From the NCBI RefSeq assembly GCF_009914755.1, contig NC_060927.1: a DNA stretch of 64,000 bases. The stretch is one strand, 5' to 3'. How positions within the stretch are numbered: the first letter of the stretch is position 1; each line of letters opens with the position of its first letter. This DNA is from the human T2T-CHM13v2.0 reference genome, Homo sapiens. A program made the position numbers and the translations under genes. Shown here piece after piece: positions 43,292-58,200 of the stretch. The notes below the pieces were generated by a model. The model was not told where the DNA came from, ran no database searches, and saw nothing but the letters and a program-made list of their open reading frames with translations.

Positions 43292-46200
43292 AAGACAGGA
43301 TCAAATTCACACATAACAATATTAACTTTAAATGTAAATGGACTAAATTCTCCAATTAAAAGACACAGACTGGCAAATTGGATAAAGAGTCAAGACCCAT
43401 CAGTGTGCTGTATTCAGGAAACCCATCTCACGTGCAGAGACACACATAGGCTCAAAATAAAAGGATGGAGGAAGATCTACGAAGCCAATGGAAAACAAAA
43501 AAAGGCAGGGGTTGCAATCCTAGTCTCTGATAAAACAGACTTTAAACCAACAAAGATCAAAAGAGACAAAGAAGGCCATTACATAATGGTAAAGGGATCA
43601 ATTCAACAAGAGGAGCTAACTATCCTAAATATATATGCACCCAATAGAGGAGCACCCAGATTCATAAAGCAAGTCCTGAGTGACCTACAAAGAGACTTAG
43701 ACTCCCACACATTAATAATGGGAGACTTTAACACCCCACTGTCAACATTAGACAGATCAACGAGAGAGAAAGTCAACAAAGATACCCAGGAATTGAACTC
43801 AGCTCTGCACCAAGCGGACCTAATAGACATCTACAGAACTCTCCACCCCAAATCAACAGAATATACATTTTTTTCAGCACCACAACACACCTATTCCAAA
43901 ATTGACCACATACTGGGAAGTAAAGCTCTCCTCAGCAAATGTAAAAGAACAGAAATTATAACAAACTATCTCTCAGACCACAGTGCAATCAAACTAGAAC
44001 TCAGGATTAAGAATCTCACTCAAAACCACTCAACTACATGGAAACTGAACAACCTGCTCCTGAATGACTACTGGGTACATAACGAAATGAAGGCAGAAAT
44101 AAAGATGTTCTTTGAAACCAACGAGAACAAAGACACAACATACCAGAATCTCTGGGACGCATTCAAAGCAGTGTGTAGAGTGAAATTTATAGCACTAAAT
44201 GCCCACAAGAGAAAGCAGGAAAGATCCAAAATTGACACCCTAACATCACAATTAAAAGAACTAAAAAGCAAGAGCAAACACATTCAAAAGCTAGCAGAAG
44301 GCAAGAAATAACTAAAATCAGAGCAGAACTGAAGGAAATAGAGACACAAAAAACCCTTCAAAAAATCAATGAATCCAGGAGCTGGTTTTTTGAAAGGATC
44401 AACAAAATTGATAGACCACTAGCAAGACTAATAAAGAAAAAAAGAGAGAAGAATCAAATAGACACAATAAAAAATGATAAAGGGGATATCACCACTGATC
44501 CCACAGAAATACAAACTACCATCAGAGAATACTACAAACACCTCTACACAAATAAACTAGAAAATCTAGAAGAAATGGATACATTCCTCGACACATACAC
44601 TCTCCCAAGACTAAACCAGGAAGAAGTTGAATCTCTGAATAGACCAATAACAGGAGCTGAAATTGTGGCAATAATCAATAGCTTACCAACCAAAAAGAGT
44701 CCAGGACCAGATGGATTCACAGCCGAATTCTACCAGAGGTACAAGGAGGAACTGCTACCATTCCTTCTGAAACTATTCCAATCAATAGAAAAAGAGGGAA
44801 TCCTCCCTAACTCATTTTATGAGGCCAGCATCATTCTGATACCAAAGCCAGGCAGAGACACAACAAAAAAAGAGAATTTTAGACCAATATCCTTGATGAA
44901 CATTGATGCAAAAATCCTCAATAAAATACCGGCAAAACGAATCCAGCAGCACATCAAAAAGCTTATCCACCATGATCAAGTGGGCTTCATCCCTGGGATG
45001 CAAGGCTGGTTCAATATACGCAAATCAATAAATGTAATCCAGCATATGAACAGAGCCAAAGACAAAAACCACATGATTATCTCAATAGATGCAGAAAAAG
45101 CCTTTGACAAAATTCAACAACCCTTCATGCTAAAAACTCTCAATAAATTAGGTATTGATAGGACGTATTTCAAAATAATAAGAGCTATCTATGACAAACC
45201 CACAGCCAATATCATACTGAATGGGCAAAAACTGGAAGCATTCCCTTTGAAAACTGGCACAAGACAGGGATGCCCTCTCTCACCGCTCCTATTCAACATA
45301 GTGTTGGAAGTTCTGGCTAGGGCAATCAGGCAGGAGAAGGAAATAACAGGTATTCAATTAGGAAAAGAGGAAGTCAAATTGTCCCTGTTTGCAGATAACA
45401 TGATTGTTTATCTAGAAAACCCCATCGTCTCAGCCCAAAATCCCCTTAAGCTGATAAGCAACTTCAGCAAAGTCTCAGGATACAAAATCAATGTACAAAA
45501 ATCAGAAGCATTCTTATACACCAACAACAGACAAACAGAGAGCCAAATCATGAGTGAACTCCCATTCACAATTGCTTCAAAGAGAATAAAATACCTAGGA
45601 ATCCAACTTACAAGGGATGTGAAGGACCTCTTTGAGGAGAACTGCAAACCACTGCTCAAGGAAATAAAAGAGGATACAAACAAATGGAAGAACATTCCAT
45701 GCTCATGGGTAGGAAGAATCAATATCGTGAAAATGGCCATACTGCCCAAGGTAATTTACAGATTCAATGCCATCCCCATCAAGCTACCAATGACTTTCTT
45801 CACAGAATTGGAAAAAACTACTTTAAAGTTCATATGGAACCAAAAAAGAGCCCACATCACCAAGTCAATCCTAAGCCAAAAGAACAAAGCTGGAGGCATC
45901 ACACTACATGACTTCAAACTATACTACAAGGCTACAGTAACCAAAACAGCATGGTACTGGTACCAAAACAGAGATATAGATCAATGGAACAGAACAGAGC
46001 CCTCAGAAATAACGCCACATACCTACAACTATCTGATCTTTGACAAACCTGAGAAAAACAAGCAATGGGGAAAGGATTCCCTATTTAATAAATGGTGCTG
46101 GGAAAACTGGCTAGCCATATGTAGAAAGCTGAAACTGGATCCCTTCCTTACACCTTATACAAAAATCAATTCAAGATGGATTAAAGATTTAAACGTTAGA

Positions 46201-47118
46201 CCTAAAACCATAAAAACCCTAGAAGAAAACCTAGGCATTACCATTCAGGACATAGGCGTGGGCAAGGACTTCATGTCCAAAACACCAAAAGCAATGGCAA
46301 CAAAAGCCAAAATTGACAAATGGGATCTAATTAAACTAAAGAGCCTCTGCATAGCAAAAGAAACTACCATCAGAGTGAACAGGCAACCTACAAAATGGGA
46401 GAAAATTTTCGCAACCTACTCAGCTGACAAAGGGCTAATATCCAGAATCTACAATGAACTCAAACAAATTTACAAGAAAAAAACAAACAATCCCATCAAA
46501 AAGTGGGCAAAGGACATGAACAGACACTTCTCAAAAGAAGACATTTATGCAGCCAAGAAACACATGAAAAAATGCTCATCATCACTGGCCATCAGAGAAA
46601 TGCAAATCAAAACCACAATGAGATACCATCTCACACCAGTTAGAATGGCAATCATTAAAAAGTCAGGAAACAACAGGTGCTGGAGAGGATGTGGAGAAAT
46701 AGGAACACTTTTACACTGTTGGTGGGACTGTAAACTAGTTCAACCATTGTGGAAGTCAGTGTGGCGATTCCTGAGGGATCTAGAACTGGAAATACCATTT
46801 GACCCAGCCATCCCATTACTGGGTATATACCCAAATGACTATAAATCATGCTGCTATAAAGACACATGCACACGTATGTTTATTGCAGCATTATTCACAA
46901 TAGCAAAGACTTGGAACCAACCCAAATGTCCAACAATGATAGACTGGATTAAGAAAATGTGGTACATATACACCATGGAATACTATGCAGCCATAAAAAA
47001 TGATGAGTTCATGTCCTTTGTAGGGACATGGATGAAACTGGAAACCATCATTCTCAGTAAACTATCGCAAGAACAAAAAACCAAACACCACATATTCTCA
47101 CTCACAGGTGGGAATTGA
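43292..47118 (+). pseudogene. L1 ORF2p (EN-RT-C), inactivated
   Basis: Start codon ATG>AAG at 43292, a 1-bp deletion at about 44264, and RT motif FADN at 45388-45399. Confidence 0.95.
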
Positions 47119-56600: not shown

Positions 56601-58200
56601 CCCAAGGTAATTTACAGATTCAATGCCGTCCCCATCAAGCTACCAATGACTTTCTTCACAGAATTGGAAAAAACTACTTTAAAGTTCATATGGAACCAAA
56701 AAAGAGCCCGCATCGCCAAGTCAATCCTAAGCCAAAAGAACAAAGCTGGAGGCATCATACTACCTGACTTCAAACTATACTACAAGGCTACAGTAACCAA
56801 AACAGCATGGTACTGGTACCAAAACAGAGATATAGATCAATGGAACAGAACAGAGCCCTCAGAAATAACACCGCATATCTACAACTATCTGATCTTTGAC
56901 AAACCTGAGAAAAACAAGCAATGGGGAAAAGATTCCCTATTTAATAAATGGTGCTGGGAAAACTGGCTAGCCATATGTAGAAAGCTGAAACTGGATCCCT
57001 TCCTTACACCTTATACAAAATCAATTCAAGATGGATTAAAGACTTAAACGTTAGACCTAAAACCATAAAAACCCTAGAAGAAAACCTAGGCATTACCATT
57101 CAGGACATAGGCATGGGCAAGGACTTCATGTCTAAAACACCAAAAGCAATGGCAACAAAAGCCAAAATTGACAGATGGGATCTAATTAAACTAAAGAGCT
57201 TCTGCACAGCAAAAGAAACTACCATCAGAGTGAACAGGCAACCTACAAAACGGGAGAAAATTTTCGCAACCTACTCAGCTGACAAAGGGCTAATATCCAG
57301 AATCTACAATGAACTCAAACAAATTTATAAGAAAAAAACAAACAACCCCATCAAAAAGTGGGCGAAGGACATGAACAGACAATTCTCAAAAGAAGACATT
57401 TATGCAGCCAAGAAACACATGAAAAAATGCTCACCATCACTGGCCATCAGAGAAATGCAAATCAAAACCACAATGAGATACCATCTCACACCAGTTAGAA
57501 TGGTAATCATTAAAAAGTCAGGAAACAACAGGTGCTGGAGAGGATGTGGAGAAATAGGAACACTTTTACACTGTTGGTGGGACTGTAAACTAGTTCAACC
57601 ATTGTGGAAGTCAGTGTGGCGATTCCTCAGGGATCTAGAACTGGAAATACCATTTGACCCAGCCATCCCATTACTGGGTATATACCCAAATGACTATAAA
57701 TCATGCTGCTATAAAGACACATGCACATGTATGTTTATTGCGGCATTATTCACAATGGCAAAGACTTGGAACCAACCCAAATGTCGAACAAAGATAGACT
57801 GGATTAAGAAAATTTGGCACATATACACCATGGAATACTATGCAGCCATAAAAAATGACGAGTTCATGTCCTTTGTAGGAACATGGATGAAATTGGAAAT
57901 CATCATTCTCGGTAAACTATCTCAAGAACAAAAAACCAAACACCGCATATTCTCACTCATAGGTGGGAATTGAACAATGAGATCACATGGACACAGGAAG
58001 GGGAATATCACACTCTGGGGACTGTTGTGGGGTGGGGGTAGGGGGGAGGGATAACATCAGGAGATATACCTAATGCTAGATGACGAGTTAGTGGGTGCAG
58101 CGCACCAGCATGGCACATGTATACATATGTAACTAACCTGCACAATGTGCACATGTACCCTAAAACTTAAAGTATAATAATAAAAAAAAAAAAAAAAGAA
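53630..58200 (+). mobile_element. 5'-truncated L1PA2/PA3-like element (end of ORF1 to poly(A)) inserted in the Alu linker; ORF2 disrupted
   Basis: 12-bp TSD aagaaattagcc at 53618-53629 and 58201-58212. ORF2 ATG at 53831 is intact, but the frame is broken by an AluY, a stop at 56127-56129 and a frameshift at about 57020. FADN at 56244-56255. Confidence 0.96.
54806..55113 (+). mobile_element. AluY inserted in ORF2 of the second L1
   Basis: Full Alu with poly(A) at a canonical TT/AAAA target (54791-54796). TSD core aactagaa at 54798-54805 and 55114-55121. Confidence 0.96.

What the first reader, a model, noticed from the sequence alone, without database searches (positions are those of the whole stretch)
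43766..57650. Two independently inserted L1s share a patchwork of non-consensus substitutions: candidate interlocus gene conversion
Copy A (41312-47336) and copy B (53630-58200) have different TSDs and flanks. They differ strongly in some blocks (about 16 differences in A43091-43490; about 10 in A44350-44601), including subfamily-type sites (MDTF/MDKF, GVGK/GMGK). Other blocks look identical (A44815-45079; A45427-45771). Both carry changes absent from the recalled L1PA consensus, at A coordinates 43766 (STREK), 44181 (CRVKF), 44930 (KIPA), 45048 (HMN), 45347-8 (EITG), 45397 (FADN), 45443 (QNPL), 45505 (KSEA), 45633-44 (FEENC) and 46423 (YSAD). B positions are A+10539 before the inner Alu and A+10856 after it. 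Ten or more parallel mutations are implausible. Repeated short-tract exchange (tens to about 350 bp) between neighbouring direct repeats is the simplest biological reading.
Basis: partly seen in the sequence, partly recalled or inferred. Interest (0 to 1): 0.8.

Follow-up and report, generated by a model that had tools for sequence, protein, structure and literature searches.

The report
Gene conversion between two neighbouring L1s
Two dead L1 retrotransposons that inserted separately about 6 kb apart on human chromosome 3 have since copied short stretches of sequence into each other, a known process (non-allelic gene conversion) seen here in an unusually clear example.

Summary
Copy A is a full-length L1 (41312-47336). 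Copy B is 5'-truncated (53630-58200), lies inside an Alu and carries a later Alu. Their target-site duplications differ. They differ at 98 of about 4230 aligned sites.

They share 10 alleles found in none of the 28-65 dispersed L1 copies compared at each site. Chance predicts 0.06 such coincidences. Seven intervals carrying shared alleles were searched across the genome. Each has only 1-3 further exact copies, all unlinked, and no third element carries two of them.

A and B are not sister copies. Outside the shared stretches, A sits in a younger clade (support 100/99) and B among older copies. Joining them is rejected (AU p 0.0005). At 18 subfamily-diagnostic sites B has the older allele every time. 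A has the younger allele at 13 and the older at 5, in patches beside the shared rare alleles. The shared rare changes are GC-biased (7:1 against 16:28; p 0.016).

Best reading: at least six conversion tracts of about 50-750 bp, mostly B to A. This is a new instance of a known process, of modest interest. Ape orthologues and raw reads could not be checked.

The parts
41312..47336 (+). Copy A: full-length L1 of 6025 bp, younger ('Y') type, with broken ORF1 and ORF2. It is the recipient of most of the conversion.
   Evidence: Pfam finds Tnp_22_trimer and Transposase_22 (ORF1), Exo_endo_phos_2 and RVT_1 (ORF2). The reading frames are split into pieces of 206, 113, 241 and 847 aa. A sits inside the young clade with support 100/99.
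41299..41311 (+). Target-site duplication of A. The second copy is at 47337-47349.
   Evidence: An exact 13-bp repeat flanks the element and its poly-A tail.
53630..58200 (+). Copy B: 5'-truncated L1 homologous to A43091-47336, of the older ('O') type, with a broken ORF2. It is the main donor.
   Evidence: Alignment with A. B carries the older allele at 18 of 18 diagnostic sites. It groups with the older panel. Its frames are broken.
53618..53629 (+). Target-site duplication of B, inside a host Alu. The second copy is at 58201-58212. The host Alu runs from about 53486 to 53629 and from about 58201 to 58386.
   Evidence: An exact 12-bp repeat. The flanks are Alu-like, and families D5 and D6 link them to the inner Alu. 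The outer Alu ends (about 53486 and 58386) are taken from the repeat-masked stretch 53486-58386 in the hub's table, not from a call.
54806..55113 (+). Alu inserted into B, at the point corresponding to A44263/44264. It interrupts the A/B homology.
   Evidence: A 317-bp gap in A in the alignment. An 8-bp TSD lies at 54798-54805 and 55114-55121.
43766..44181 (+). Tract T1, minimal span (maximal 43613-44366), direction B to A. Shared rare alleles 43766 G and 44181 T. Older-type or minority alleles 43913, 43915, 44025 and 44028 are present in A.
   Evidence: The A-B distance is 8 over 754 bp, below the minimum to any panel copy (9 and 11). It may be two tracts.
44682..45048 (+). Tract T2, minimal span (maximal 44583-45284; identical core 44815-45079), direction B to A. 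The older allele 44682 C is present in A. 44850 A, 44865 A and 44937 A belong to an older sub-lineage. Shared rare alleles 44930 C and 45048 G.
   Evidence: The A-B distance is 4 over 478 bp, against a minimum of 6-9 to the panels.
45347..45397 (+). Tract T4a (maximal 45328-45407), bounded on both sides by Y/O diagnostic differences. Direction probably A to B.
   Evidence: 45347 C is in 0/37 panel copies and 45397 A in 2/38. 45348 A occurs in 12/28 young copies and 0/9 older copies. The bounding sites 45327 and 45408 are Y in A and O in B.
45443..45644 (+). Tract T4b (identical core 45427-45771; maximal up to 46013). Direction probably A to B. Shared rare alleles 45443 C, 45505 G and 45644 G, plus the young-variant pair 45633 T / 45634 G.
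   Evidence: The shared sequence is closer to young copies (median 5 differences) than to older ones (median 10).
46394..46557 (+). Tract T3a (maximal 46279-46578), direction B to A. The older allele 46394 A is present in A. Shared rare alleles 46423 G and 46557 G.
   Evidence: This is the weakest tract by distance: A-B is 5, against a minimum of 4-6 to the panels.
46617..46788 (+). Tract T3b (maximal 46580-46872), direction B to A. The older alleles 46617 A and 46626 C, and the B-sub-lineage allele 46788 G, are present in A.
   Evidence: The A-B distance is 2 over 293 bp, against a minimum of 4. 46836 T, a young variant present in B, points the other way and is unexplained.

Best explanation
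Shown: A and B are two independent L1 insertions in direct orientation. Their homologous parts start 10.5-10.9 kb apart, and about 6.3 kb lie between the end of A and the start of B. A belongs to a younger lineage. B belongs to an older lineage and was already there. Both are dead copies.

Shown: A and B form a reciprocal mosaic. About 30% of B's distinctive alleles are now in A, and about 29% of A's are in B.

Inferred: after A inserted, homologous repair between the two copies (non-allelic, or interlocus, gene conversion without crossover) copied short stretches from one into the other. Each tract carried two things from the donor: its subfamily alleles and the private mutations it had accumulated.

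Inferred: at least six tracts fit the data, with minimal spans of 51-416 bp and maximal spans up to about 750 bp. Four run from B to A (T1, T2, T3a, T3b). Two probably run from A to B (T4a, T4b). Mismatch repair in the heteroduplex favoured G/C alleles. Private mutations that now sit inside some tracts arose after the conversions, so the events are old rather than recent.
For: 1. Independent insertions. The TSDs and flanks differ, and B lies inside an Alu.

2. Pair-specific alleles. Ten shared alleles occur in 0 of 28-65 panel copies, against 0.057 expected by chance. None of the ten is a CpG-decay change.

3. Genome-wide rarity.
- Typed patterns, whole-genome counts: the exact 31-mer A45630-45660 is found in A, B and 1 old copy. 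The 31-mer A44920-44950 has 5 exact matches among 5259 within 2 mismatches. The 91-mer A45430-45520 has 4 exact matches among 2209.
- Reference queries of 76-81 nt: A, B and 1-2 others at 100% identity. Only 40 of 56-119 candidates were scored, so these are lower bounds.
- The 12 extra places are all unlinked, and none carries two intervals.

4. Different lineages.
- On 1721 columns outside the shared intervals, A is in the young clade (100/99) and B groups with the older copies. Holding A+B together costs 56 lnL units (AU p 0.0005).
- B is older-type at 18 of 18 diagnostic sites. A is younger-type at 13 and older-type at 5.
- With B's blocks as query, dispersed copies score 98-99% and A is not among the 40 scored.

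5. Controls.
- A carries B's allele at 24 of 77 sites where B departs from the young majority. The 28 young control copies carry it at 0-9 of 26-78 such sites.
- B carries A's allele at 14 of 49 sites where A departs from the older majority. The 11 older control copies carry it at 0-4.

6. Clustering.
- Rare shared alleles lie in longer difference-free intervals than expected (mean 209 bp against 109; P 0.002).
- There are fewer runs than expected (26 against 34.1; P 0.023).
- In five of six proposed tracts, the A-B distance is below the distance to the nearest panel copy.

7. GC bias. Shared rare changes are 7 W>S to 1 S>W. Private changes are 16 to 28 (Fisher p 0.016, a post hoc test). A large GC bias is reported for human non-allelic conversion (Harpak et al., abstract read).

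8. Plausibility. That abstract gives a mean tract of 250 bp and 2.5e-7 per site per generation. Raised conversion rates between Alu copies less than 10 kb apart are cited by Fawcett & Innan 2019 (passage read).
Against: - No orthologous ape sequence, second human assembly or raw read was available. The pre-conversion states are therefore inferred, not observed.
- A 3SEQ-like maximum-descent test on the 77 informative sites is not significant (P 0.22), because the patches are many and short.
- Tract T3a is no closer between A and B than to the nearest panel copy.
- 46836 T contradicts the direction inferred for T3b.
- The partition used for the trees was defined from A-B identity. The tree of the shared intervals is therefore partly circular.
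- Roughly 25-30% of the homologous length appears converted. On my estimate, and assuming an age of about 7 Myr for A (a recalled figure for this kind of L1), that is several-fold more than the genome-average rate would give.
- Panels are top-scoring hits, not random samples. 45347 C and 46557 G were tested only against the panels.
Confidence: 0.85

Rival explanations
1. Common rare source. A and B are parent and daughter, or two offspring of one rare source lineage that carried the shared alleles. There was no exchange after insertion.
For: The shared alleles are exclusive to the pair. A is full-length and could in principle have been a source.
Against: - Outside the shared intervals, A and B fall in different clades, and their union is rejected (AU p 0.0005).
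- B keeps the older allele at 13 diagnostic sites where A has the derived younger allele. A side lineage cannot acquire the main lineage's changes in patches.
- With B's blocks as query, dispersed copies score 98-99% and A is not among the 40 scored.
- Two members of a two-member lineage landing about 6 kb apart would be a coincidence of roughly 1 in 100,000 (my estimate).
- The shared changes are GC-biased, unlike ordinary mutations.
Confidence: 0.04
2. Assembly or polishing cross-talk. Reads from one copy were used to correct the other, creating false shared alleles.
For: The two copies are 97.5% identical and close together. I could not inspect any reads or a second assembly.
Against: - The shared stretches carry coherent subfamily alleles. 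They are interrupted by private changes in both copies, as expected of old events.
- The exchange is reciprocal and GC-biased.
- The copies differ about every 42 bp. From general knowledge, long accurate reads place themselves unambiguously at that density. This was not tested here.
Confidence: 0.05
3. A third party was involved. Some shared alleles entered A and B from another L1, either by ectopic conversion from an older element or by recombination with a cDNA, rather than from each other.
For: 45443 C and 45505 G occur together in two independent old chrX copies. 45633 T, 45634 G and 45644 G occur together in one old chr13 copy.
Against: - Each of those old copies carries only that one group of alleles and none of the other shared rare alleles.
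- They are 93-95% identical to A and lie on other chromosomes.
- Two separate imports of the same stretch into both A and B are less economical than one exchange between them.
- No other young L1 lies in the window.
Confidence: 0.04
4. Parallel mutation at hypermutable sites in both copies.
For: A few shared minority alleles sit at sites that vary in all panels (for example 44418, 45396 and 46509).
Against: Chance predicts 0.057 coincidences and 10 are observed. None of the ten is a C>T or G>A change at a CpG, and four are transversions.
Confidence: 0.01

Closest known systems
Non-allelic gene conversion between neighbouring Alu elements (Aleshin & Zhi 2010, as cited in Fawcett & Innan 2019, PMC6598467; passages read. 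The original paper was not seen.)
   Same: Independent retrotransposon insertions within about 10 kb of each other are homogenised in short stretches. The result is a conflict between insertion history and sequence tree.
   Different: Here the partners are 4.2 kb of L1 rather than 300-bp Alus. Several separate tracts, both directions and later private mutations can therefore be resolved within one pair.
Non-allelic gene conversion between human gene duplicates (Harpak et al. 2017, bioRxiv 10.1101/135152; abstract read)
   Same: Tract sizes of the order of 250 bp, GC bias, and a rate above that of point mutation.
   Different: The paralogues here arose by separate retrotransposition, not by duplication. 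They therefore started about 3% diverged and from different subfamilies, which makes donor and recipient identifiable. On my rough estimate, the converted fraction is several-fold above what the average rate predicts.
Earlier reports of L1 gene conversion (Burton et al. [quoted passage not shown] 2002, recalled)
   Same: An L1 at a fixed locus acquires the sequence of another L1 lineage.
   Different: As I recall them (not read), those cases describe replacement of much of an element by an unidentified donor. Here the donor is identified, adjacent and itself partly converted.
Recombinant full-length L1s screened out in a pangenome study (PMC13192797; methods passages read; supplements closed)
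   Same: Mosaic L1 copies were detected by 3SEQ/BOOTSCAN: 22 high-confidence and 13 probable among 2267 loci.
   Different: That screen does not say, in the passages I read, whether the donors are neighbours. Whether copy A is on its list could not be checked.

Membership tests
Non-allelic (interlocus) gene conversion | Two homologous sequences at distinct loci with independent origins | tested here: met
   The TSDs and flanks differ. B lies inside an Alu.
Non-allelic (interlocus) gene conversion | Mosaic ancestry: different parts of one copy have different nearest relatives | tested here: met
   A is in the young clade (100/99) on 1721 columns. It is outside that clade (100/93), beside B's relatives, on 1150 columns (the partition is partly circular). 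A shows 13 younger and 5 older alleles at 18 diagnostic sites.
Non-allelic (interlocus) gene conversion | Derived variants shared only by the two partners | tested here: met
   Ten alleles occur in 0 of 28-65 panel copies. Seven intervals were searched genome-wide, and no third element carries two of them.
Non-allelic (interlocus) gene conversion | Contiguous tracts of tens to hundreds of bp, with flanks not exchanged (no crossover) | tested here: met
   Shared alleles cluster (P 0.002; P 0.023). Minimal spans are 51-416 bp. Both TSD pairs and the spacer are intact. Tract ends are inferred.
Non-allelic (interlocus) gene conversion | GC-biased transmission | tested here: met
   7 W>S to 1 S>W among shared rare changes, against 16 to 28 among private changes (p 0.016; post hoc, small numbers).
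Non-allelic (interlocus) gene conversion | Unconverted state seen in an orthologue or another haplotype | not testable with these tools
   No ape genome or second human genome is held.
L1 (LINE-1) retrotransposon, primate L1PA lineage | ORF1 with L1 trimerisation and RNA-binding domains; ORF2 with endonuclease and reverse transcriptase; poly-A tail; TSD | tested here: met
   Pfam hits all lie above their cut-offs. Poly-A tails and TSDs are present. Thousands of copies 97-99% identical exist in the same genome.
L1PA2 (A) and L1PA3 (B) subfamily names | Match to the named subfamily consensus at its diagnostic positions | not tested
No repeat library is held. I show only that A groups with a younger set (terminal branches about 0.006) and B with an older set (about 0.011-0.02).

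The most novel reading that the evidence does not exclude
The reciprocal, finely interleaved and GC-biased mosaic may be the product of one or two complex recombination events. These would have long heteroduplex on both copies and patchy mismatch repair, rather than six or more separate conversions. Alternatively, closely spaced L1 pairs convert each other at several times the average rate for duplicates. In that case the subfamily labels and ages of L1s lying near other L1s would be systematically distorted.
Probability: 0.2. Interest if true: 0.5.

Novelty: new member of a known kind. Interest (0 to 1): 0.35.

Why it matters
This pair gives a clean, internally controlled example of non-allelic gene conversion between retrotransposons. 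Donor, recipient, direction, approximate tract sizes and GC bias can all be read from a single locus.

Such exchange affects several things:
- It blurs L1 subfamily assignment and divergence-based dating.
- It spreads mutations between dead copies.
- It marks pairs of direct repeats that could also mediate deletion or duplication of the DNA between them.

It does not reveal a new mechanism.

Tried and rejected
- Chance or parallel mutation: rejected (0.057 coincidences expected, 10 seen).
- A dispersed subfamily carrying the alleles: rejected as far as tested (panels; genome-wide counts).
- Parent-daughter or common source: rejected.
- Another young L1 in the window as donor: none found. There is only a 232-bp 3' fragment at 91% identity and some old pieces.
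- 3SEQ-like maximum-descent test: not significant (P 0.22).
- Density of A's rare alleles in its 5' part (no homologue in B) against the homologous part: 4.0 against 4.5 per kb, which is uninformative.
The panels therefore cover only parts of the element. The young panel covers 43800-47300, the first older panel 41593-45090 and the second older panel about 44400-47336.
- A genome-wide count for the stretch holding 45347 and 45397 could not be made. These two sites and 46557 rest on the panels alone.
- The supplements of PMC13192797, which may list copy A among recombinant L1s, are closed.
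Full report
**Anatomy**

The window holds two L1 elements in the same orientation.

Copy A (41312-47336) is full-length at 6025 bp. It starts with the usual L1 5' end, ends in a poly-A tail and is flanked by an exact 13-bp target-site duplication at 41299-41311 and 47337-47349. 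Pfam recognises the L1 ORF1 domains, the endonuclease and the reverse transcriptase in its reading frames. The frames are broken into pieces of 206, 113, 241 and 847 aa.

Copy B (53630 to about 58200) is 5'-truncated and corresponds to A43091-47336. It is flanked by a 12-bp duplication at 53618-53629 and 58201-58212. It sits inside an Alu, and a further Alu (54806-55113) with its own 8-bp duplication is inserted into it. Its frames are broken too.

The offsets 10539, 10856 and 10855 are correct.

**The observation**

A and B differ at 98 positions over about 4230 aligned bases.
- 16 differences in A43091-43490;
- 10 differences in A44350-44601;
- none in 44815-45079 or in 45427-45771.

All the peptide strings it quoted are present in both copies at the stated places.

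**Reference copies**

The window's own genome can be searched. I gathered three panels of dispersed L1 copies from it.
- Young panel: 28 copies that best match A45300-45800 (3871 candidates, 40 scored). It covers 43800-47300.
- First older panel: 29 copies that best match B53630-54130 (1642 candidates, 40 scored). It covers 41593-45090.
- Second older panel: 11 copies that best match B56756-57255 (2837 candidates, 40 scored). It covers about 44400-47336.

All copies were projected onto A's coordinates, using the best alignment piece of each.

Over 3 kb, A is no closer to B (97.5%) than to dispersed copies (97.2-98.1%). With B's blocks as query, dispersed copies reach 98-99% and A is not among the 40 scored. 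With A45300-45800 as query, B is the best hit after A itself. This is a mosaic.

**Are the shared alleles special?**

Ten positions carry an allele that A and B share and that none of the 28-65 panel copies covering the position has. They are 43766, 44181, 44930, 45048, 45347, 45443, 45505, 45644, 46423 and 46557.

With 22 A-private and 33 B-private changes, 0.057 identical coincidences are expected. None of the ten is a CpG-decay change, and four are transversions.

Genome-wide searches give the following.
- The exact 31-mer around 45633-45644 occurs in A, B and one copy on contig 13 that is 94.7% identical to A.
- The 31-mer around 44930/44937 has 5 exact matches among 5259 within two mismatches.
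- The 91-mer with 45443 and 45505 has 4 exact matches among 2209. Another 19 matches carry one of the two alleles. The two extra exact copies are old chrX elements, 95% and 93% identical to A.
- Reference queries of 76-81 nt around 46423, 44181, 45048 and 43766 gave A, B and one or two others at 100% identity. Only 40 of 56-119 candidates were scored, so these are lower bounds.

The twelve extra places are all unlinked, and none carries two of the seven intervals. The alleles occur at the frequency expected of sporadic mutation, not as a subfamily.

**Common descent is excluded**

At many positions where A and B differ, both alleles are common, but in different panels.

At 18 sites, the young panel (at least 70% of copies) and the older panels (at least 60%) have different majority alleles. 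B has the older allele at all 18. A has the younger allele at 13 and the older at 5: 44025, 44682, 46394, 46617 and 46626.

I built a maximum-likelihood tree of 34 rows: A, B, 22 young copies, 9 older copies and one old chrX copy. Nine rows with incomplete cover were left out. The tree used the 1721 columns outside the shared intervals. It puts A inside the young clade (100/99) and B among the older copies next to L075. Holding A and B together costs 56 log-likelihood units (AU p 0.0005).

On the 1150 columns of the difference-free intervals that hold shared alleles, the identical pair falls outside the young clade (100/93). It again lies next to L075, on a shared branch of 0.012. This second tree is partly circular, because the columns were chosen for A-B identity.

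**Controls**

At the 77 sites where B departs from the young majority, A has B's allele at 24. The 28 young control copies have it at 0-9 of 26-78 such sites.

At the 49 sites where A departs from the older majority, B has A's allele at 14. The 11 older controls have it at 0-4.

The exchange is therefore reciprocal and specific to this pair.

**Tracts**

Rare shared alleles lie in longer difference-free intervals than random positions do (mean 209 bp against 109; P 0.002). The order of A's 'B-like' and 'young-like' sites shows fewer runs than expected (26 against 34.1; P 0.023). A maximum-descent statistic is not significant (P 0.22).

Many differences inside the shared regions are private to one copy and can postdate conversion. 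I therefore treat only differences at diagnostic or polymorphic sites as hard borders. That gives six tracts, described in the parts list:

| Tract | Minimal span |
|---|---|
| T1 | 43766-44181 |
| T2 | 44682-45048 |
| T4a | 45347-45397 |
| T4b | 45443-45644 |
| T3a | 46394-46557 |
| T3b | 46617-46788 |

In five of the six, A and B are closer to each other than either is to any panel copy. In the five blocks between the tracts, A-B distance exceeds A's median distance to the panel available there.

Older-type alleles in A give the direction B to A for T1, T2, T3a and T3b. In T4a and T4b, B carries young-variant alleles, and the shared sequence is nearer to young copies (median 5 differences against 10). 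This suggests A to B. 46836 T does not fit the direction inferred for T3b.

**GC bias**

Polarised by the panel majority, the shared rare changes are 7 weak-to-strong, 1 strong-to-weak and 2 neutral. The 53 private changes are 16, 28 and 9 respectively. Fisher's test gives p 0.016. The test was thought of after seeing the data, and the numbers are small. It is nonetheless what biased repair of heteroduplex predicts and what common descent does not.

**Comparison with the literature**

- Harpak et al. (abstract read) estimate a mean tract of 250 bp, 2.5e-7 conversions per site per generation and a strong GC bias for human duplicates.
- Fawcett & Innan (passages read) summarise conversion among Alu elements. 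They cite higher rates for copies within 10 kb.
- A 2026 preprint removed 35 recombinant loci from 2267 full-length L1 loci (methods passages read).
- My searches for explicit phrases on conversion between L1 copies found one relevant item, a reference-list entry to Burton et al. 1991.

The process is known. This locus is a well-resolved instance. By my rough estimate, the converted share of about 25-30% is several-fold above what the average rate would give for an element of about 7 Myr (a recalled age).

**What remains open**

No ape orthologue, other human haplotype or read data could be consulted. Assembly cross-talk is therefore argued against, not excluded. Subfamily names were not tested against a library. 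45443 C and 45505 G co-occur in two independent old chrX copies that are 93.6% identical to each other. This is unexplained.

Noticed in passing
L064 (G000:C23:10548950-10553400) and L065 (G000:C23:75191970-75196420): Two independent old L1 copies on contig 23 are 95% and 93% identical to A and 93.6% identical to each other. Both carry 45443 C and 45505 G in an exact 91-mer shared with A and B, yet none of the other shared rare alleles. Either an older lineage had these two states or it is a coincidence.
   Followed up: partly
L033 (G000:C13:11642778-11645808): An old L1 copy, 94.7% identical to A, carries 45633 T, 45634 G and 45644 G together, as A and B do.
   Followed up: partly
window 46836: B carries T, a variant seen in 15/24 young copies and 0/12 older copies. 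It lies 48 bp from 46788 G, which points to conversion in the opposite direction. Either there is a very short reverse tract or B mutated in parallel.
   Followed up: no
window 53486-53629 and 58201-58386; 54806-55113: The host Alu split by B and the Alu inserted into B are about 89% alike over 105-158 nt. Together they record the order of events: host Alu, then B, then the inner Alu. Conversion between these Alus was not examined.
   Followed up: no
window 27360-27590 (-): A 232-bp L1 3'-end fragment on the minus strand, 91% identical to A. Old L1 pieces also lie at 44-225, 325-1288 and 11797-11887.
   Followed up: no
G000:C3:105849424-105849924 (-), about 46 kb upstream of the window: Another L1, 97% identical to B's first 500 bases, lies nearby on the opposite strand. 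It was not examined as a possible third partner.
   Followed up: no
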